A stretch of DNA of 24,000 bases. Origin: Bifidobacterium canis. GTDB lineage: Bacteria > Actinomycetota > Actinomycetes > Actinomycetales > Bifidobacteriaceae. Below are positions 8,348-15,569 of the stretch, one piece after another. The notes under the pieces are model-generated. The model saw only the letters and a program-made list of their open reading frames with translations, was not told where the DNA came from and searched no databases. The translations under genes were made by a program, and so were the position numbers. How positions within the stretch are numbered: position 1 is the stretch's first letter; every line of letters begins with the position of its first letter. The DNA is taken from assembly GCF_009727065.1 (NCBI RefSeq), contig NZ_WNLP01000010.1:69770-93769 (forward strand), read 5' to 3'.

Positions 8348-9589
8348 TCAGGTGTTCAGGAACAGTGCGCGCCCCATGTCCGACAGCGAGTAGCGGATGG
8401 GTTTGGAACCATGCGTTTGCAGCAATCCGGCATCCGTCAGCGCGTCGAGCGCGTTCACGGTCTTGCGTTCGCCTATGTCCAACGCCTCCCGAAGGAGCTT
8501 GCGGGTCACGGGCACGCGCATCCCGTCGAACAGCTCCTCCTGGATCAGGAAGAACAGGATGCCCGCTTGCAGTCCGGGCATCCCCTCTTGTTGGCGGTAT
8601 GACGTCAACGCGGTTTCCGCTGCCGACAACAGGGCTTGTTTCTCCGTCAATTGCGCGATGATGGCCTCCTGCGCTTCGGACACAAACCGGACCATGCGTT
8701 GGCAGAACATGGTCACGTCCGAGCAGTTCAACGGATGCTGGGCGTCATCGAATGCCTTGTAATACTGTGTCTTGTGGTCGGCGATGATGGTGCTGACGCT
8801 GAGCGCCGTCGGTGCGGATAGGTGCTTGCTTAGTTGCAGTGCGAACAGGAACCGTCCCGTCCTGCCGTTGCCGTCGTAGAACGGGTGGATGTGCTCGAAG
8901 GCATAATGGCACATGGCGGCCCTGAGCAATGGCGGGATGTCCCGGTCTCGCATCAAGGCCAGCCATTGCGTCAACTGCACTTGGATGGTGGATTCGGGCC
9001 AGGCCCCATCATGCAGTTTGCGTCCGGTGCTCTCATCCCAGACCGCGATGGTGTCCTTGCGGAACAGTTGCCCGTCGGGGGTGTCCTTGTCCTCCAGTTC
9101 CCCGTCCATGACCTGATCGTATATGCGGCGGATGCCCTCAAGGGTGGAAGGCAGTTCCAACCGTTCGGGACCGGGGTCGGACAGGCCGAGGAACAGCTTG
9201 GCGAATTCACTCCAACGTGTATGCCCGCCATTGGTGCTGGCGGCCTGCAACGCCTCGCTGATCTCCTTGCGTGTGGTATGCACACCTTCGATGGTGTTCG
9301 TGCTTTGCACTTCGGTGCCGATGAGGTCCATGAGGTATGCGTGGCACGCGATGGGCGGCAGGCTGCGCCACAGCGACTCCACCTGATTTTCCAAGTCGCG
9401 TACCTTATCCATATCGCGGCCGAGTTGCGCGGACAATATAGCGAACATTTCGTATCCGTCCAGCACAAGCCCTGAACGGTATGTGGACCAGCCGTTGATC
9501 CGTGTATCGTATTCCTGTTGCGCGGCTTGTTTTGGGGGAATGGTCGCGGAGCCCATGGCAACGGTTTGCCGGATGGTCTTGTACCCCAT
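8348..9589 (-). CDS. Fic family protein (class II, N-terminal inhibitory helix; probable AMPylase-type enzyme)
   Basis: Fic motif HPFYDGNGRTGR is encoded at 8887..8852. An inhibitory (S/T)xxxE(G/N) motif is present as TNTIEG in the N-terminal part. The preferred start is ATG 9589, 7 nt after GAGGAG (9602..9597); the track start at 9604 overlaps that RBS. Confidence 0.85.
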   Translation of the reverse strand: MGYKTIRQTVAMGSATIPPKQAAQQEYDTRINGWSTYRSGLVLDGYEMFAILSAQLGRDMDKVRDLENQVESLWRSLPPIACHAYLMDLIGTEVQSTNTIEGVHTTRKEISEALQAASTNGGHTRWSEFAKLFLGLSDPGPERLELPSTLEGIRRIYDQVMDGELEDKDTPDGQLFRKDTIAVWDESTGRKLHDGAWPESTIQVQLTQWLALMRDRDIPPLLRAAMCHYAFEHIHPFYDGNGRTGRFLFALQLSKHLSAPTALSVSTIIADHKTQYYKAFDDAQHPLNCSDVTMFCQRMVRFVSEAQEAIIAQLTEKQALLSAAETALTSYRQQEGMPGLQAGILFFLIQEELFDGMRVPVTRKLLREALDIGERKTVNALDALTDAGLLQTHGSKPIRYSLSDMGRALFLNT

Positions 9590-9634
9590 GCAACAACTCC
9601 TCATAACGTGAAAACGTGCATATACGGATGAACA

Positions 9635-9663: not shown

Positions 9664-9840
9664 AACAGCATGATAGCAAGCATGGGATACGGGTGTATGG
9701 CGTCAGGTATGCCGAATTGTGCTGATGATTCGCTTCTGCAGTGGCGTCAATGCACGGTACATGGAGTGTGGGCGGGCGGCAAACGCCCGCAATCGGCGCC
9801 GCACCCATGCCTTCGGATTCACGGAACGCACGGGGGCGGC

Positions 9841-9933
9841 GGCAACCACGGGCGCATATGCAATAAACCGGGTGCGCCCGTGGTTGCCCAACCCATATGT
9901 GGGAGGGGAACGGGGCGCACCCGGCTTATTGCA
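9841..9933 (-). other. Two overlapping, mutually exclusive inverted repeats (possible terminator/attenuator-like RNA element) downstream of the SSB-like gene
   Basis: IR-B is a perfect 16 bp stem: GGCAACCACGGGCGCA (9841-9856) / TGCGCCCGTGGTTGCC (9873-9888). IR-A pairs TGCAATAAACCGGGTGCGCCCG (9859-9880) with CGGGGCGCACCCGGCTTATTGCA (9911-9933), ~20 bp with 1 mismatch and 1 bulge. The left arm of IR-A overlaps the loop and right arm of IR-B. There is no clear U-tract. Confidence 0.4.
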
Positions 9934-9949
9934 TGAATAGCGGGGTGGT

Positions 9950-10702
9950 TCAGACCGTGCCGACGCCCATCGCGGCGAACGCGTCGCCCATGGTGTCCGC
10001 GCCACCAGCGTCGACCGTCGGGGCGGGCATGTTGAAGCCCTTGAGCGGGTCACGGTCCTCCATCGTGAACAGCGGGGTGCCGTCCCCCGTCTTCACCACG
10101 GCGTTCACCACCGCCTTGATGCCCATGTTGCCATTGACCACATACGGGGAGAACCAGATGTTGGCACGCACCCAGCAACCCGCGTACAGCTGCTGCATCG
10201 TCAACGGGCGTCCGGTGTTGAAATCCACCAGCAGGCTGCGTTCCGCACCCGTCTCCGGATCCTGCGCATGCGCCAGATCCTTCGACGTGGTCAACCGGAT
10301 GAAATAGCGGCCGGCGAACTCCGGGTACACATCCTTGCGCAGTTCGCCATTGTGCTCACCACGGGTGAACCGGTCCGTGTCACCGTCCTTCAACGGCAGC
10401 TGTAGGGTCTTGACGAACGCGGGATTGTTCGGATCCTTGCCGGCGAACGGCACGAACTTCGCCTTCGTCTTCGGGTCATACCCGCACTCCTCGGTGCAGC
10501 CCTGCTTGATGGCGGCCATGACGGCCTGCTGGATCGCACGGTAATCCGCGGACGTTTCCACGGTCCTGTCCACACCATCCACGGTTTCCGTCCCCGGCTT
10601 CTTATCGATCAGCAGCGTGAGCTCGTACTTGTCGTTCATGCTGGGTTTGAACAGGTGGACGAACGTGGCGATGGCCGGTTCGGGAAGAATCAGATCAGAC
10701 AT
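9950..10702 (-). CDS. Phage T7 gp2.5-like single-stranded DNA-binding protein (DUF2815 family)
   Basis: ATG at 10702 has AAGGA ~6 nt upstream; the track start at 10819 was rejected. The sequence follows the DUF2815 pattern: ATFVHLFKPS..KYELTLLIDK, LPLKDGDTDR...YFIRLTTSKD, and LYAGCWVRANIWFSPYVVNGNMGIKAVVNAVVKTGDGTPL. Confidence 0.8.
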   Translation of the reverse strand: MSDLILPEPAIATFVHLFKPSMNDKYELTLLIDKKPGTETVDGVDRTVETSADYRAIQQAVMAAIKQGCTEECGYDPKTKAKFVPFAGKDPNNPAFVKTLQLPLKDGDTDRFTRGEHNGELRKDVYPEFAGRYFIRLTTSKDLAHAQDPETGAERSLLVDFNTGRPLTMQQLYAGCWVRANIWFSPYVVNGNMGIKAVVNAVVKTGDGTPLFTMEDRDPLKGFNMPAPTVDAGGADTMGDAFAAMGVGTV

Positions 10703-10767
10703 GGCATGTTCCTTACTGTGTGCCGTACCCAACACCCAGCCCACTGCCGGGGTGGAGGCAACCCGTA

Positions 10768-11165
10768 CTATGCGTCCCGACCGGGCACACGGACCGTTTC
10801 CGGCATGAACTGCTCGCACATCGTCACCCGCCGGCCCTGCACGAACGCCGACTCCAACGTGCGCCCGTCGAAAATGGCGACATACCCCTCCGCGTACGGG
10901 ATCCTGTCACCGGGGCAGAACGCGCCGATGCTGCGCGCCAACGACACCGCTCCCGCCGCATCCCCCCGGGACGCCAACAGGTCAATCCGGTTCTTCGCCT
11001 CCCATCCGGCCGTCTCCCACGCCGGCGCGCCGGATACACGCCGGACGCGGGTTGGCTGGAGGGGGTGGGCGGCATGGGTGGGCGGCCCACATCCCTCATG
11101 GGGTTCGCATCGAACTGTCCACCCGCCCCATTGGGCGCCCCTTTCGGTTTACGCATGACCGGCAT
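10768..11165 (-). CDS. Hypothetical protein, apparently frame-broken
   Basis: The start cluster ATG 11171/11165/11156 follows GAAAGGG (11180..11174). The N-terminal frame reads MPVMRKPKGAPNGAGGQFDANPMRDVGRPPMPPTPSSQPASGVYPA and then turns into Arg-rich junk. The protein-like continuation, PAWETAGWEAKNRIDLLASRGDAAGAVSLARSIGAFCPGDRIPYAEGYVAIFDGRTLESAFVQGRRVTMCEQFMPETVRVPGRDA*, is in the adjacent frame (track ORF 10768..10977, which has no upstream start). The switch lies within the GC palindrome CCGGCGCGCCGG (11022-11033). Confidence 0.4.
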
Positions 11166-11217
11166 GACCATCACCCTTTCACGATTCCATATGACTGTTG
11201 TGGTGTACGCACCCCAC

Positions 11218-11910
11218 CTATGCGCCGACACCCACCCCATCATCGGGGCCATGCGCCATATCCGCCAAACCATCCGGGATCATCGCCGCCCGTTCGCCGC
11301 GCGGCCAATACGACTCACGCGCCCGCACCAACAACCAAGTCGACAGGCGGCTGGGTACCCGGTCGCTTTTGCGCCTGTTGTGCTTGGCACACAACCACAC
11401 CAGGTTGCGCCGGCTGGTGGCGCCCCCACGGCTCCACGGGTAATGATGGTCCATCTGCTCACCCATGCGCGGACAACGGATCAGACCGCACATGCGGTGC
11501 TCGCACTGGTTGCCGGTGCATTGTGTGATGAACTCCCGGTCCGCGTCCGAGAACAGGCGGCGTGGATCCCTGTCGAACGGGTTGTCCGGTTTGCGCATGG
11601 GCCAACACACCATTATGGCCACCAGTGCAACCACCAGTGCGGCCATCAGGGCCGTCCACAGCCAACCGGCCGGGACATGCGGCATACGCCAAACGGGCCA
11701 GTGCCACCCCGACAACGGGTTGAGGCTGATGTCGGCCGCAAACTCCGGACTGTCCGTTTCCGCCAACAACCGGTCATGCACACGGATGCACACACCGCCC
11801 ACATACCCCATGGTCCCCATGCCGCCGGAACCGGCCACGGCCCACAGAACATGGCGCGCCCACCGGTGCGCGCCCATAAGCCTGCGCGCCAACCGGATAG
11901 GATGCCACAT
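11218..11910 (-). CDS. Membrane-anchored HNH endonuclease
   Basis: ATG at 11910. HNH core: CEHRMCG...MDHHYPWSRGGATSRRNLVWLCAKHNRRKSD. It is preceded by a strongly hydrophobic helix, GWLWTALMAALVVALVAIMVCW, and a weaker one, HVLWAVAGSGGMGTMGYVGGVCI. Confidence 0.8.
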   Translation of the reverse strand: MWHPIRLARRLMGAHRWARHVLWAVAGSGGMGTMGYVGGVCIRVHDRLLAETDSPEFAADISLNPLSGWHWPVWRMPHVPAGWLWTALMAALVVALVAIMVCWPMRKPDNPFDRDPRRLFSDADREFITQCTGNQCEHRMCGLIRCPRMGEQMDHHYPWSRGGATSRRNLVWLCAKHNRRKSDRVPSRLSTWLLVRARESYWPRGERAAMIPDGLADMAHGPDDGVGVGA

Positions 11911-11913
11911 GGG

Positions 11914-12054
11914 TCAACACCACCCGAACACGGCGCACACCACCGCAACAGGCATGATGAGCCAGAACACGGCACCTATCCACAACCCCCACTTGTCCCG
12001 TGATGATTGCGACAGGAACCGGTCACGCTCCCGGTTGCGTTGCTCCCTATCCAT
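11914..12054 (-). CDS. Small membrane protein (46 aa), translationally coupled to the HNH gene
   Basis: Hand translated; too short for the track. Sequence: MDREQRNRERDRFLSQSSRDKWGLWIGAVFWLIMPVAVVCAVFGWC*. A charged N-terminus is followed by one TM helix. The stop TGA (11916..11914) is separated from the HNH ATG (11910) by 3 nt. GGAGG lies ~12 nt upstream of the start. Confidence 0.4.
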   Translation of the reverse strand: MDREQRNRERDRFLSQSSRDKWGLWIGAVFWLIMPVAVVCAVFGWC

Positions 12055-12124: not shown

Positions 12125-15100
12125 ATGAGCGCTTACACCACTTTGGCCATGGAAACCCTCCCCCTGCTGCGATGGGGCGACGTGGCGGGCAGTCTGGAGA
12201 ACCGCACCGATGACGTCATCGACCAGATCACCGGCCTGTTCGGCTCCATCCCCGTAAGCGTCGAAGGGGTGATGCTGAGCTTGGGCAACGGATTGTGGAC
12301 CGCGGGCGCGAAACTCCTGGGCATGTCCAACGGCAGCGAACAAACCATCGCGGACGCGATGGGACCGGTAAGCAACAGGGTCGTCAAAACCATATACGAC
12401 ACGTTGACGGGCACGATGATGATCCCCGCGCTGATCGTCGCCGCCACCATCTGCACCACCATCTTCATGGTATTCAAAGGCCAAGGCGCCCGCGTCCTCA
12501 TGCAACGCTTCACCGCCCTGATCGTAGGGTTCGCGTTCGTCATCGGCATCGGCGCGCAATGCAGCCAACACCCCGACATCCCCGCCACCGGCACACCATG
12601 GTGGACATACCAGTTCGCCGACCAGCTCGTCGGCAAAACCGGCAATCAGCTCACCGGAGCGTTGGACGCGAGCATGAAATCCACCGGCGCGTTCCTCGCG
12701 TCCACCTCCACCACCAACAAACTCTCCTGCCGGCGCTACCTGGCGCGGTTGGGCGCGGAGGCATCCATGGGCCAGGATGATGTGATCCTGCGCAGCATGA
12801 ACACGATGTGGGAGGAAACGGGGTTGCGCATGTGGGCGCGTGCCCAATACGGCGCCGGGGAGAACGGCACGGAGGTGTTCTGCCGTGTGCTGGAGTACCG
12901 GGCGGGCGCCAACCCGCTGGACCAGGCGGACCGGACGAACGCGGCCGCCATGGCCACCCCACCCGGCCAAGGCGACAATGTGGAACAACGGCTCCGGGCC
13001 CTCAACGGGTCCAACTCGCCGGTGAAGGCCAGCGGGTATGCGATGGCGTTCAACCCGGACCTGCTGATCATCGACGAGGAGGGGCCCACCGGGTCGGACA
13101 GTGACATCAAACCCGCCGCGTCGGCGAAAATGCTCGACCGGATGGTCACCATGTGGGACGTGTGCACCTGGAGGGACGGTGAGGGCGACAACGGGTACGT
13201 GTCCCGTGGCGGCTGGCAATGGGTCGACGCCGTCACAGGCCCCAACCGAGGCCTTGGCAACAACAACAAACTGTCGAACTATTGCCGGGTGGCGATCAGT
13301 GGCGAGGGCACGTTGGACGGCGGCAACACCAAGGATTGGCGCGTATGGGTGGTCGAGGACAGCACCAAAGGCGAAGAACTGCAACACCAGTTGAAGGACA
13401 CGGCACTGGATGCCGCACGGGCTGCGCTGTCGGGCGCGGGGTTCTCCACCTCCGAACAACAGGAGATCATGGCCACGATCCAAGCGGGCAAACCAATGAG
13501 CGCGATCATGTCCATCGTCACCAATTTCAGCCTGCTCACCAACCCGTGGAAAATGATCGACGGCGCCAAAGGGGTGCGTCAAGCGTACGAGGAGTACCAC
13601 AGGCTGCTTGGAGAAATCGCGCAGACCGTCAAGGACGGGTCGGGTGATGAGCAGGTGCAGGCCAACCGCACCCGCATCGGCAATCTGAACAACCCCAATG
13701 ACGGTGCGTTGCGTGCGGTGGTCAAGAAGTTCGATCTGTCGAACTCGAACACCGCATGGCAGTGGGCGGCCCGCACGCACACGGACGCCGGCCAGTTGGA
13801 GAACACCATCAAGGCCATCGCCACCGTCAACCAACAGCACGGCAGCGCGCAATGGTCCGATGTGGGCGGCGGGTTCATCTTCGCCCTGAGCGGTCTGGTG
13901 AACATGCTCATCTGGGGCGTGGGCTTCGGCCTGCTTCGCCTGTTGGCGGTCGCGTTGGCGTGCCTGTGCGCCACCGGGTTGTGGTTCGCGTTGATCGTGT
14001 GGGCGGTAAGCCCCGACCGGGGGCGCAAAACCCTGTCGAAGACGGTGACCAGCATGCTGGGCATGATCGCACCCCCACCGTGTTGGGCTTGTACATGGCG
14101 GTCGCGTGCATCCTGATGAACACGATCATGATGGCGTTGGGCATCGTCGACCGCAACGGCAACACGGCGGCGACGGTCATGGTGATGGGTGTGTGCAGCC
14201 TGGTGCTGCCGTTGGCGAGCGTGTTTGGGTTGCGGTGGTTGTGCATCCGGGTGCTGCATGTGGGCGACCCGTTGAGTTTCGGCGCGCTTGGCGTCATCGG
14301 GGCCACCGTGGGCCAGGGGTGCGCAAGGCGGGCCGTATGGCGATGGCCGCCGGTGGCGCCCTGGCCGCCGGCGCCACCGGCGGTGCGGTCGCGATGGCCG
14401 CGATGAACGGCGCCCGGGCCGGGTCCGTGTCGGATGCGTTGCAGCACGGCTACCGGCAAGGCCAGCATGGACAGCATGGCCAGCACGGTGCAGGCAAGGG
14501 CACCGGGAGCGGCCGGCATGCGGCCCAATCGAACCAACAGTCGGAAGCGGACCGGGCGGTCGGCTCCCCCAATGGACCCGACGGGAATGCTTCCGGTGTG
14601 GTGGACAATGCGTTCGAACGCCAATTGGAACGGGAGCAGGGTGATCATCTGGACAGCATCAAGAACAACCTGATGGTCGAACACCCCGATTGGGACGAAG
14701 AGCGGATCGACCGGGAGGCGCGTGACCGGTTGACGGCGGACTCGGGCAACATGACGCAGCTTGCCGCCAACAAAACCGCCCGGAACATCGTCACCCGTAA
14801 AATGGAGCACGAGGAACTGGTCAAGGTGCGTGCCGAACACCCCCAGGCAAGCGAGGAGGAAGTGGCCGCCCTGGTCAAACAAGGCATGGCCGGCCGTCAA
14901 ACGGAACGCGACAGGCAGATCAGTGAGGTGAAGCAACGGTTGCTGGCCGGACATCGGCAACGTGAACAGGTGCGTGTGCAGGCGGAACATGAACGTGAGT
15001 TGATGCGAACGGCGACGGGCCGGTTGCAATTGGCCCGTGAACTGCACACGGACGGGGATGGTGGCGTGCACCGTACGCGGGCGGCCATGGCGTTCGCCCG

Positions 15101-15569
15101 CGGTGAGGCCCACCGTTTCACCGAACAGCATCCCGTCCTGTCCCGTGCGGCCGGTGTCGCGGGTGTGGGCGCGTTGATGTTCACCCCATTGGCCACACCC
15201 GTCGCATTGGCCGTCGCCGGCCGGGGTATGGCCAAGGGCGCGCAGCACGCAGGCCAGGCCATCCAGAACACGGAAATGCGGGTGCGGGACGCAGCCGGGC
15301 GCGCCAAAGGGTTCATGTCCCTGTTGGCATCCCCAACAGGCCCCACGCCGGTTGCGGCGCCACACATGCTGCCGGTGGAACAGCAGGCGCGCATGCGCAT
15401 GGGCGCTCCCGCCACCCCCATGGGTCAACAAACCGGACCGGGTGATGTGCGACCGGTGCCGGTGGCGCAAACGGCACCGCGCCCGCCCATCAAACCCGTG
15501 GCGTCCCCGCCTGCGCCACCCCAACCCGTGTCCGTGCCCGTGGGCACACCAACCGGGCACGGCGCATAG
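12125..15569 (+). CDS. Very large polytopic membrane protein with a C-terminal coiled-coil/Pro-rich region (VirB6/TrbL/TcpH-like role is tentative); read as one gene with two one-base frame breaks, or alternatively three overlapping ORFs
   Basis: Segments: 12125..14116 (track, 663 aa); a middle segment in the frame of track ORF 13756..14406, protein-like only from ~14077 (possible own start GTG 14080); a last segment in the frame of track ORF 14106..15569, protein-like from ~14319 (possible own starts GTG 14319 or ATG 14337). Restoring one C in C5 (14072-14076) gives ...SMLGMIAPPTVLGLYMAVACILMNTIMMALGIV.... Restoring one G in a G4 run (14316-14319 or 14297-14300) gives ...GATVGQGVRKAGRMAMAAGGALAAG.... 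The uncorrected tails are Trp/Arg/Pro-rich junk. Multiple TM helices flank a ~450 aa loop. A GQHGQHGQHG repeat lies at ~14458-14490. Confidence 0.6.

What the first reader, a model, noticed from the sequence alone, without database searches (positions are those of the whole stretch)
9950..12054. Operon coupling a small TM protein, a membrane-anchored HNH nuclease, an unknown protein and a gp2.5-like SSB
Four tightly spaced minus-strand genes: a 46 aa single-TM protein whose stop is 3 nt from the next ATG; an HNH endonuclease carrying an N-terminal TM anchor; an unassigned protein beginning MRKPKGAPNGAGGQF; and a DUF2815/gp2.5-type SSB. HNH nucleases are usually soluble. Tethering one to the membrane on a conjugative element, next to an ssDNA-binding protein, suggests processing of ssDNA at the membrane during entry or exit, or exclusion of competing DNA. 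I know of no characterised system with this composition.
Basis: inference. Interest (0 to 1): 0.65.

Follow-up and report, generated by a model that had tools for sequence, protein, structure and literature searches.

The report
Membrane-tethered HNH nuclease module on ICE
A Bifidobacterium conjugative element carries a conserved four-gene operon built around a DNA-cutting enzyme tethered to the inside face of the cell membrane; the combination has not been described, and it probably acts on DNA as it crosses the membrane, though this role is untested.

Summary
The four minus-strand genes are real: a 46-aa tail-anchored membrane protein, a 230-aa HNH nuclease with a strong TM helix and a weaker Gly/Ala-rich one, a small protein X, and a gp2.5/Enc34-type SSB. 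X is split in this assembly by a 1-base deletion near 11028. It is intact (129 aa) in B. cuniculi.

The order small-HNH-X-SSB recurs in 11 further distinct loci, with proteins only 40-57% identical. Among 236 Bifidobacteriaceae species genomes, 7 carry the HNH and all 7 also carry the element's large polytopic membrane protein. All 6 with this SSB have the HNH. The contig is a T4SS-type conjugative element.

Micrococcales megaplasmids hold 1-TM relatives in the order dnaE-ssb(classical)-HNH-small ORF-CHAP hydrolase. The SSB link therefore recurs with an unrelated SSB. Other Actinomycetes have stand-alone chromosomal copies.

Charge distribution places the HNH domain in the cytoplasm in both architectures. 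All catalytic and zinc residues are invariant.

Best reading (0.4): a gatekeeper nuclease that cuts DNA at the inner membrane face, in the manner of SNIPE. The main rival is a transfer or establishment DNA-processing factor.

X has no known fold. It carries an N-terminal tag shared by six otherwise unrelated proteins of this genome. Other windows of this scan also noted membrane-tethered nucleases on conjugative elements.

The parts
11914..12054 (-). Small tail-anchored membrane protein (46 aa): a charged cytoplasmic N-terminus with the conserved RERDRF motif, then one TM helix
   Evidence: ORF. Kyte-Doolittle 2.44 for residues 24-42. A family HMM finds it next to the HNH gene in 9 other loci and about 1.8 kb upstream of it in L015/L047.
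11218..11910 (-). Membrane-anchored HNH endonuclease (230 aa)
   Evidence: Pfam PF01844 and PF13395 above their cut-offs. 24 homologues found, with the start Met conserved. Closest solved relative is 4H9D. AF2 model pLDDT 67, with helices at residues 4-53 and 81-102 and a beta-beta-alpha core.
11779..11847 (-). HNH residues ~22-44: a charge-free Gly/Ala-rich segment (putative TM1), preceded by an N-terminus of net charge +5
   Evidence: The N-terminal net charge is +3 to +8 in 17 of 18 family members. Hydropathy is marginal here (<1.2) but reaches 2.27 in P0014.
11599..11664 (-). HNH residues ~83-104: strongly hydrophobic TM2, followed by the invariant juxtamembrane motif PDNPFDRDPRRLF
   Evidence: Kyte-Doolittle 2.64. 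Invariant columns P108, N110, F112, R114, D115, R118 and F120.
11362..11505 (-). HNH catalytic core (residues 136-183): C136, C146, D154-H155, N169, C174, H177-N178
   Evidence: All are invariant in the 18-sequence alignment A1. The alignment to 4H9D covers the DH...N...CxxN region.
10768..11171 (-). Gene X, split here by a 1-base deletion at ~11028. The N-terminal part (from the ATG at 11171 or 11156) is in one frame; the C-terminal part (to the stop at 10768) is in another. It has a disordered N-terminus carrying the tag motif, then a small alpha/beta domain
   Evidence: GC3 frame switch. Indel against L001. Intact 129-aa homologue. Family alignments A2 and A3. AF2 pLDDT 85-94 for residues 46-120. 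No fold match in PDB or BFVD.
9950..10702 (-). gp2.5/Enc34-type ssDNA-binding protein (250 aa)
   Evidence: PF10991 59.8 bits; phrog_112 E 4e-18.
9825..9949 (-). Long stable hairpin immediately 3' of the SSB stop: the likely end of the operon
   Evidence: MFE -71.8 kcal/mol, z = -7.0 against shuffles. There is no T-run, so its role as a terminator is inferred.
12125..15569 (+). Divergent large polytopic membrane protein of the element (about 1150 aa when intact; broken here by 1-base deletions). In other loci it heads the same operon as the HNH gene
   Evidence: Intact 1148-aa copy in L001 with 7 hydrophobic segments. Indels at 14071 and 14320. Operon order large-~260 aa-small-HNH with 4-nt overlaps in L017, L019 and L021.

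Best explanation
The operon is a backbone module of a family of actinobacterial T4SS-type conjugative elements. Its centre is an active HNH DNase held at the cytoplasmic face of the membrane.

Predicted layout: in this protein the arginine-rich N-terminus is cytoplasmic. TM1 goes out, a short acidic loop with the conserved DSPEYA motif lies outside, and TM2 returns. The HNH domain follows within about 30 residues. Relatives with a single TM reach the same orientation with the N-terminus outside.

The tether would keep the nuclease away from the nucleoid. It would also place it where DNA crosses the membrane.

The mechanism I commit to is a gatekeeper. The enzyme cuts foreign DNA, from competing conjugative elements or from phages, as it emerges at the inner membrane face of a cell that already carries the element. 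This is self/non-self discrimination by location, as shown for SNIPE. The small TM protein and protein X would act as partners or regulators. The gp2.5-like SSB would coat and protect the element's own single strand, or anneal it.

Shown here: gene content, conservation, invariant catalytic residues, hydrophobic segments, charge bias and synteny. Inferred: topology, nuclease activity, substrate, and the role of every partner.
For: 1. Nuclease competence. The catalytic and zinc residues are invariant across 18 homologues that are 40-92% identical. The nearest solved relative is the small Geobacter HNH, 4H9D.

2. Topology. The N-terminus has net charge +3 to +8, the loop -4 to +1, and TM2 has Kyte-Doolittle 2.0-3.2. 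The 1-TM relatives have an uncharged N-flank and a basic C-flank (RKGRGDGK..., GRAIAQNRP...), which puts the HNH domain inside by an independent route. In one genome (L033) a natural in-frame deletion joins the N-in small protein to TM1, which fits TM1 running from inside to outside.

3. The nuclease can stand alone. Sporadic chromosomal 1-TM copies in other Actinomycetes have no T4SS or SSB nearby (5 of 400 sampled genomes). That is the pattern expected of a single-gene defence function.

4. Precedent. SNIPE is an N-out, single-TM protein with a cytoplasmic nuclease. It cleaves phage DNA during injection, and removing its TM makes it toxic (bioRxiv 10.1101/2025.11.03.685801).

5. Neighbourhood. 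It sits among conflict genes: the adjacent Fic protein matches PADLOC SoFic (E 7e-36), and related loci carry orphan methylases, GmrSD_C and SocA_Panacea.

6. Placement in or next to the mating-channel operon is also where exclusion genes of other conjugative systems lie (established knowledge: traS/traT, trbK, ICEBs1 yddJ).
Against: - Nothing here shows activity, substrate or phenotype.
- The gene behaves as a stable backbone gene. It is present in all 7 element copies found in the family, and in several loci it is translationally coupled to the channel genes. Typical defence cargo turns over faster.
- A non-specific nuclease at the channel would also threaten the outgoing strand, so some form of regulation has to be assumed.
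- TM1 is only marginally hydrophobic in this protein. If it does not span the membrane, the HNH domain would face outwards.
- No dedicated topology predictor was available.
- PADLOC gives only generic HNH hits.
- The link to an SSB in two unrelated element lineages points as much to DNA processing as to exclusion.
Confidence: 0.4

Rival explanations
1. The module is a DNA-processing accessory of conjugation itself. The tethered HNH would cut or trim the transferred strand at the channel, in the donor or on arrival in the recipient. It would work with the SSB/annealase and the element's PrimPol to terminate, recircularise or establish the incoming copy.
For: - The gene is core to the element family: 7 of 7 genomes with the HNH have the large membrane protein, and 6 of 6 with this SSB have the HNH.
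- 4-nt overlaps link large protein, ~260-aa protein, small protein, HNH and X in L017 and L019.
- Micrococcales megaplasmids repeat the pattern with a non-homologous classical SSB: dnaE-ssb-HNH-small ORF-CHAP in 4 of 4 Micrococcaceae plasmids examined, and ssb-HNH-NlpC/P60 in 1 Curtobacterium plasmid.
- The module lies between the channel genes and the replication genes.
Against: - Stand-alone chromosomal homologues have no T4SS or SSB nearby.
- One Bifidobacteriaceae element (L044) keeps large-293 aa-small-HNH but has no Enc34-type SSB within 18 kb.
- No characterised conjugation system needs such a nuclease.
- The loci within each lineage share ancestry, so conserved order is weak evidence of function.
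Confidence: 0.3
2. The genes are neighbours by descent, not a functional unit. The HNH would be an independent accessory or selfish nuclease, or a toxin kept harmless by its tether. The SSB would simply serve the element's replication module.
For: - All Bifidobacteriaceae loci belong to one element lineage.
- The SSB, PrimPol/DUF5906 and SNF2 together make a phage-like replication set that needs no HNH.
- The TM-HNH occurs alone elsewhere.
- The small gene lies about 1.8 kb from the HNH gene in L015/L047.
Against: - An SSB is adjacent in two element lineages that use unrelated SSB folds.
- Spacing is tight or overlapping in most loci.
- The order is retained at 40-57% protein identity.
Confidence: 0.15
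3. The tethered HNH is the element's transfer nickase and stands in for a missing HUH-type relaxase. It would nick at an origin of transfer next to the channel, and an FtsK-like coupling ATPase would then pump the DNA.
For: - No match to TrwC, Relaxase, Rep_trans, MobA_MobL or Mob_Pre in the whole genome, which is 95% complete. The Replic_Relax search is uninformative because its control rang in no genome.
- All nine megaplasmids that carry relatives are typed 'non-mobilizable' by MOB-suite, although those examined carry T4SS-type cell-wall hydrolases.
- Small HNH enzymes of this branch are known nickases that work with partner proteins (established knowledge: phage cos-site HNH/terminase; Geobacter HNH).
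Against: - HNH enzymes form no covalent 5' adduct, which known ssDNA conjugation needs for piloting and rejoining.
- Many large ORFs of the element have no Pfam match and could hide a divergent relaxase.
- Stand-alone chromosomal copies have no transfer genes nearby.
Confidence: 0.08

Closest known systems
SNIPE (membrane-bound GIY-YIG nuclease of E. coli; Saxton et al., bioRxiv 10.1101/2025.11.03.685801)
   Same: A short extracytoplasmic N-terminus or loop, a TM anchor and a cytoplasmic nuclease. The tether is proposed to keep the nuclease off host DNA and to aim it at DNA entering through the membrane.
   Different: The nuclease fold is different (HNH, not GIY-YIG). There is no DUF4041, and the protein is much shorter. 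Here it is a backbone gene of a conjugative element, in an operon with a small TM protein, X and an SSB. No phenotype is known.
Small zinc-binding HNH endonucleases (PF01844), e.g. Geobacter metallireducens HNH, PDB 4H9D, and the phage cos-site HNH proteins
   Same: The same catalytic core (DH...N...CxxH/N) and zinc ligands. 4H9D is the best PDB sequence match (E 5e-4).
   Different: Those enzymes are soluble. This family adds one or two TM helices and an invariant juxtamembrane motif (RDPxRRF).
T7 gp2.5 / Enterobacter phage Enc34 ORF6 SSB family (PF10991, DUF2815)
   Same: The fourth gene scores 59.8 bits against PF10991 and matches phrog_112.
   Different: It is usually found in phage replication modules with a PD-(D/E)XK exonuclease or a polymerase. 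Here it follows a membrane HNH on an ICE.
ssb-HNH-CHAP cluster of Micrococcales megaplasmids (e.g. pACHL01 of Pseudarthrobacter chlorophenolicus A6)
   Same: A homologous TM-anchored HNH (38-45% identity over the juxtamembrane region and the HNH domain) lies next to an SSB and a conjugation-type cell-wall hydrolase, followed by a small ORF.
   Different: It has a single TM. The SSB is the classical OB-fold type and lies upstream. No X homologue was detected; the small-protein and X models also found nothing in the two fetched loci L026/L027. The genes are annotated only as 'HNH endonuclease' or hypothetical.
Entry-exclusion genes of conjugative systems (F TraS/TraT, RP4 TrbK, ICEBs1 YddJ)
   Same: Small membrane-associated proteins encoded inside or beside the mating-channel operon, acting in cells that already carry the element.
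   Different: They act by protein-protein blocking. None is a nuclease, and there is no sequence similarity.

Membership tests
HNH endonuclease superfamily (Pfam PF01844) | Score above the curated Pfam threshold | tested here: met
   24.0 bits against a cut-off of 21.4; PF13395 23.4 against 22.
HNH endonuclease superfamily (Pfam PF01844) | Catalytic His (general base), structural Asn, and a metal-binding His/Asn on a beta-beta-alpha core, conserved in homologues | tested here: met
   D154-H155, N169 and H177-N178 are invariant in 18 sequences. The AF2 model shows strands at 135-138 and 142-145 and a helix at 175-181.
HNH endonuclease superfamily (Pfam PF01844) | Structural zinc site (two Cys/His pairs) | tested here: met
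   C136, C146, C174 and H177 are invariant. Metal binding itself was not tested.
gp2.5/Enc34 SSB family (PF10991) | Score above the curated Pfam threshold over most of the domain | tested here: met
   59.8 bits against 26; profile positions 12-156 of 176. phrog_112 E 4e-18.
gp2.5/Enc34 SSB family (PF10991) | Acidic C-terminal tail ending in an aromatic residue (T7 gp2.5 hallmark, from established knowledge) | tested here: inconclusive
   The tail is mildly acidic (five Asp in the last 35 residues) but ends ...AAMGVGTV, without a terminal aromatic.
SNIPE | [quoted passage not shown] | tested here: inconclusive
   The charge rule predicts a cytoplasmic nuclease domain. This protein has two hydrophobic segments, while its 1-TM relatives are predicted N-out. 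No experiment or dedicated predictor was used.
SNIPE | DUF4041 DNA-binding domain | tested here: not met
   There is no Pfam match other than the HNH families.
SNIPE | GIY-YIG nuclease domain | tested here: not met
   The nuclease is an HNH.
Colicin-type HNH toxin / immunity pair | A downstream cognate immunity protein of a known immunity fold | tested here: not met
   The X model (two helices plus a three-stranded sheet) matches nothing in PDB or BFVD. There is no Pfam, PADLOC or PHROG hit.
Conjugative relaxases (MOB families) | HUH, Rep_trans or related relaxase domain | tested here: not met
   The HNH protein has no such domain. The genome as a whole has no match to five relaxase Pfams. A sixth search (Replic_Relax) is uninformative because its control rang nowhere.
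T4SS-type conjugative element (context) | VirB4-like ATPase, coupling-type ATPase, cell-wall hydrolase and a polytopic channel protein on the same contig | tested here: met
   AAA_10 protein of 864 aa, FtsK/TraG-like proteins of 553 and 1104 aa, two CHAP proteins, and a 7-TM protein of 1148 aa. No relaxase was identified.

The most novel reading that the evidence does not exclude
Two parts.

1. The tethered HNH may be the long-sought DNA-nicking or end-generating enzyme of a class of actinobacterial T4SS elements that lack any recognisable relaxase. That would be conjugation without a covalent HUH pilot protein.

2. The N-terminal peptide shared by X and five other element proteins (consensus QPRKPKGSPNGTGGQ[F/Y]) may be a docking or translocation tag. 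It would mark a set of proteins delivered through, or recruited to, the same machine.
Probability: 0.08. Interest if true: 0.9.

Novelty: new variant of a known kind. Interest (0 to 1): 0.58.

Why it matters
Conjugation in Bifidobacterium and other high-GC Gram-positive bacteria is poorly understood. These elements have T4SS-like genes but no recognisable relaxase.

A nuclease fixed to the inner membrane face is a conserved backbone component next to the channel genes. It is linked to an SSB in two unrelated element lineages. It is therefore a concrete, testable candidate for one of two roles: nuclease-based exclusion or defence by location (extending the SNIPE principle from phage injection to conjugative elements and Gram-positive bacteria), or a missing step in DNA processing.

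The shared N-terminal tag on X and on other element proteins offers a handle for finding what these proteins dock to.

Bifidobacteria are used as probiotics and are hard to manipulate genetically. A membrane nuclease that destroys incoming DNA would therefore also matter in practice.

Tried and rejected
- One fused protein with TGA read-through (small ORF plus HNH, which share a frame): rejected. All 17 homologues start at the same Met, and in other loci the two genes overlap out of frame.
- X as the 149-aa ORF 11273..10824: rejected. That frame is Arg/Pro/Gly-rich and has no coding GC3 after about 11090.
- Nucleotide search of plasmid and phage collections: no match. A tblastn search with X against plasmids: no match.
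- Fold search with the HNH model: nothing significant, and the model is only moderate (pLDDT 67).
- Fold searches with the X model against PDB and BFVD: nothing with E below 0.8.
- PADLOC: only generic HNH hits. NCBIfam: only Cas9/IscB HNH fragments, far below their cut-offs.
- Promoter and terminator consensus scan: no more than chance.
- The pMP7017 papers and the polyvalent-protein paper do not mention such a module.
- The pattern-based genome scan recovered few true relatives. The look-up of encoding contigs and the genome search were more productive.
- P0005 (B. castoris) could not be looked up by identity.
It remains open whether the deletion is real or an assembly error.
- Pfam scans of the other five tagged proteins and of the ~260-aa operon partner: no family.
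Full report
**1. What is in the sequence**

The window is about 64% G+C. It lies at positions 69770-93769 of contig C2, which is 94 kb long.

Four minus-strand genes fill 12054-9950:
- A 46-aa ORF at 12054..11914. Its TGA stop is followed by CCC and then the ATG of the next gene.
- A 230-aa HNH protein at 11910..11218.
- A small gene, here called X.
- A 250-aa protein at 10702..9950.

Pfam assigns the second gene to HNH (24.0 bits against a cut-off of 21.4). It assigns the fourth to Enc34_ssDNA-bd, PF10991, formerly DUF2815 (59.8 bits against 26). PHROGs agrees: phrog_333 for the HNH and phrog_112, 'Gp2.5-like ssDNA binding protein', for the SSB.

A very stable hairpin follows the SSB stop (-71.8 kcal/mol, z = -7). 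It probably closes the operon.

**2. Correction: gene X is broken in this assembly**

Third-position G+C follows the frame of MRKPKGAPNG... only to about 11090. It then switches to the frame that ends ...VPGRDA* at 10768.

The window is 96% identical over 16.6 kb to a chromosomal region of B. cuniculi LMG 10738 (L001). There X is one open frame of 129 aa. The window lacks one base at about 11028.

The same comparison shows further single-base deletions at short homopolymers. Examples are 14071 and 14320, which split the large membrane protein into 663- and 487-aa pieces, and 18781. The breaks may therefore be assembly errors or decay.

**3. The HNH protein**

A database search found 24 relatives, the named one from Bifidobacterium.

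In the 18-sequence alignment:
- The start Met is invariant. The small ORF, although in the same frame here, is therefore a separate gene.
- C136, C146, D154, H155, N169, C174, H177 and N178 are invariant. This is the complete HNH catalytic and zinc set.
- So is a juxtamembrane motif, P-D-N-P-F-D-R-D-P-R-R-L-F.

The best solved relative by sequence is the small Geobacter HNH, 4H9D (E 5e-4).

Hydropathy and charge:
- One strong TM at about residues 83-104, Kyte-Doolittle 2.0-3.2 across the family.
- An earlier charge-free Gly/Ala-rich stretch at about residues 22-44. It is marginal in this protein but reaches 2.27 in P0014.
- The N-terminus carries net +3 to +8 in 17 of 18 members.
- The loop between the two segments is neutral to acidic and holds a nearly invariant D-S-P-E-Y-A motif.

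By the positive-inside rule this gives N-in, loop-out, HNH-in.

The AF2 model is moderate (pLDDT 67). It shows a long N-terminal helix, the TM2 helix and a beta-beta-alpha core.

**4. Relatives with one TM reach the same orientation**

tblastn against plasmids found nine actinobacterial records, eight of them Micrococcales megaplasmids. The two proteins translated (146 and 160 aa) have an uncharged N-flank, one TM (Kyte-Doolittle 2.2), a basic C-flank, the RDPxRRF-type motif and then the HNH domain. This predicts N-out and HNH-in.

Five of 400 sampled genomes of the class have similar 1-TM proteins.

In one complete Bifidobacterium genome (L033), an in-frame deletion joins the first half of the small protein to the second half of TM1. 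This fits both helices crossing the membrane in the same direction.

**5. Co-conservation**

Look-ups by identity gave independent metagenomic and genomic loci with HNH proteins 44-56% identical to the window's. All show HNH, then X (128-235 aa, with one or two copies of its domain), then the Enc34-type SSB.

HMMs built from my alignments found small-HNH-X-SSB in the same order and orientation in the window and in L001, L015, L017, L019, L020, L021, L028-L033 and L045-L047. After removing loci that are the same place fetched twice, this is 11 further distinct loci.

In L017, L019 and L021 the order is large membrane protein, ~260-aa soluble protein, small, HNH, X, with 4-nt overlaps. In the window, L001 and L020 the large gene and the ~260-aa gene are inverted and divergent.

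Tallies over 236 species genomes of the family:

| Feature | Genomes |
|---|---|
| Full-length HNH | 7 |
| Large membrane protein | 10, including all 7 with the HNH |
| This SSB | 6, all with the HNH |

One element from a 45%-GC genus (L044) keeps large-293 aa-small-HNH but has no such SSB within 18 kb.

These loci share ancestry, so the counts are not independent tests.

**6. An independent lineage**

In four Micrococcaceae megaplasmids the order is dnaE, hypothetical, classical ssb, TM-HNH, a ~100-110-aa ORF, CHAP hydrolase. In a Curtobacterium plasmid it is ssb, TM-HNH, NlpC/P60 hydrolase. An Isoptericola chromosome has a classical ssb 1.2 kb upstream of the HNH gene.

The SSB here is of a different fold and lies on the other side. 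That makes the SSB link more than inherited synteny.

Against a strict dependence, three chromosomal copies and one on a Tsukamurella replicon lie among ordinary metabolic genes, with no SSB or transfer genes nearby.

**7. The element**

C2 is 63% G+C, against about 57% for the other contigs. It carries:
- A VirB4-like AAA_10 ATPase.
- Two FtsK/TraG-like ATPases.
- Two CHAP hydrolases.
- An AgI/II adhesin and two sortase-pilin sets.
- SNF2, PrimPol-DUF5906, an RNA ligase and a Fic protein.

The large protein has seven hydrophobic segments.

Searches with five relaxase Pfam families found nothing in the genome, which is 95% complete. A sixth search (Replic_Relax) is uninformative because its control rang in no genome.

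**8. Protein X**

A profile search of 1.84 billion representatives found only 34 relatives. The named ones are all Bifidobacterium hypotheticals.

In the AF2 model, residues 1-45 are disordered. Residues 46-120 form two helices and a three-stranded sheet at pLDDT 85-94. No structure in PDB or BFVD matches.

The disordered N-terminus carries a conserved motif (R-x-P-x-G-x-P-x-G-x-G-G-Q-F here). A regular expression for this motif hits the whole genome at only six places. Each lies 5-12 residues after a start Met: four on C2 and two on C1. The six proteins are otherwise unrelated and have no Pfam match. Other elements carry their own variant of the motif on several proteins (L019).

I read this as a shared docking or targeting peptide. 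That is inference.

**9. Mechanism**

What is shown: a catalytically intact HNH, tethered to the membrane, a backbone gene of a conjugative element family, linked to a small TM protein, a tagged protein and an SSB.

What is inferred:
- The HNH domain faces the cytoplasm, from the charge bias in two architectures.
- It acts on DNA at the membrane.

SNIPE is the only characterised system of this design. It has an N-out TM and a cytoplasmic GIY-YIG nuclease, it cleaves phage DNA during injection, and it is toxic without its TM.

I therefore favour a gatekeeper or exclusion role at 0.4. The stand-alone chromosomal copies and the conflict-gene neighbourhood support this (Fic matching SoFic; methylases, GmrSD_C and SocA_Panacea in related loci).

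The stable backbone position, the translational coupling to channel genes and the repeated SSB link support the rival, a role in processing transferred DNA (0.3). A nickase that replaces the undetected relaxase is possible but unlikely (0.08). Mere neighbourhood gets 0.15.

**10. Novelty**

No database or paper that I searched describes this module. The principle of a membrane-tethered nuclease is known from SNIPE. Other windows of this scan also noted tethered nucleases on conjugative elements (these are leads only).

I class it as a new variant of a known kind, with untested function.

Noticed in passing
window ~11147 (gene X); G000 C2 9949-11019(+), 35788-36516(+), 36563-37702(+); C1 546609-547538(-), 562043-563428(-): Six otherwise unrelated, Pfam-less proteins share an N-terminal peptide just after the start Met (consensus QPRKPKGSPNGTGGQ[F/Y], then ...LP). 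The pattern occurs nowhere else in the six-frame translation of the genome. Other elements carry their own variant on several proteins (L019: HRPKGLPQGxAGTY). It is a candidate docking or translocation tag.
   Followed up: partly
window 11028, 14071, 14320, 18781, 9666, 3464, 4321 and others: Compared with the 96%-identical B. cuniculi region, the window has many single-base deletions, mostly at short homopolymers. They break gene X, the large membrane protein and an adhesin. They are either assembly errors or decay of the element.
   Followed up: partly
G000 contig C2 (whole, 93980 bp): C2 is 63% G+C against about 57% for the other large contigs. It is 96% identical to a chromosomal island of B. 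cuniculi, and X is 99% identical to a B. pseudolongum protein. This suggests recent inter-species transfer of the element, or a mis-binned contig.
   Followed up: partly
L033 916-2133 (G058:C1, complete genome): A natural in-frame deletion fuses the N-terminal half of the small TM protein to the middle of TM1 of the HNH protein, at a GVG microhomology. The result is a single small-HNH polypeptide.
   Followed up: partly
window 9825-9949 (minus strand): A hairpin of about 22 bp lies directly after the SSB stop (-71.8 kcal/mol, z = -7). It has no T-run. It could be a terminator or a structured DNA site such as a single-strand origin or promoter.
   Followed up: partly
window 8348-9604 (-): The Fic protein next to the operon matches the PADLOC SoFic defence model (E 7e-36) and phrog_5978 (E 1.6e-40).
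   Followed up: no
whole genome G000: Searches with five relaxase Pfam families (TrwC, Relaxase, Rep_trans, MobA_MobL, Mob_Pre) found no match, although the T4SS-like gene set is full. A sixth search (Replic_Relax) had no positive control. The relaxase of this element class is unidentified.
   Followed up: partly
P0045 (1468 aa, 18 stretches), P0051, P0056, P0058; L017 13080-14156(-), L019 1221-1853(+), 13057-14160(+): The X profile also matches larger proteins, up to 18 times in one 1468-aa protein. In some cases only the N-terminal tag or a short helical stretch matches. X is therefore built from modules reused elsewhere in these elements.
   Followed up: no
L053, L055, L056 (G236, G345, G402); L060 (Tsukamurella): Stand-alone 1-TM HNH homologues sit among ordinary metabolic genes in other Actinomycetes (radical SAM, glycosidase, glyoxalase, epimerase, thiD). 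The membrane-anchored HNH family (TM, RDPxRRF, HNH) is therefore broader than mobile elements and appears to be undescribed.
   Followed up: partly
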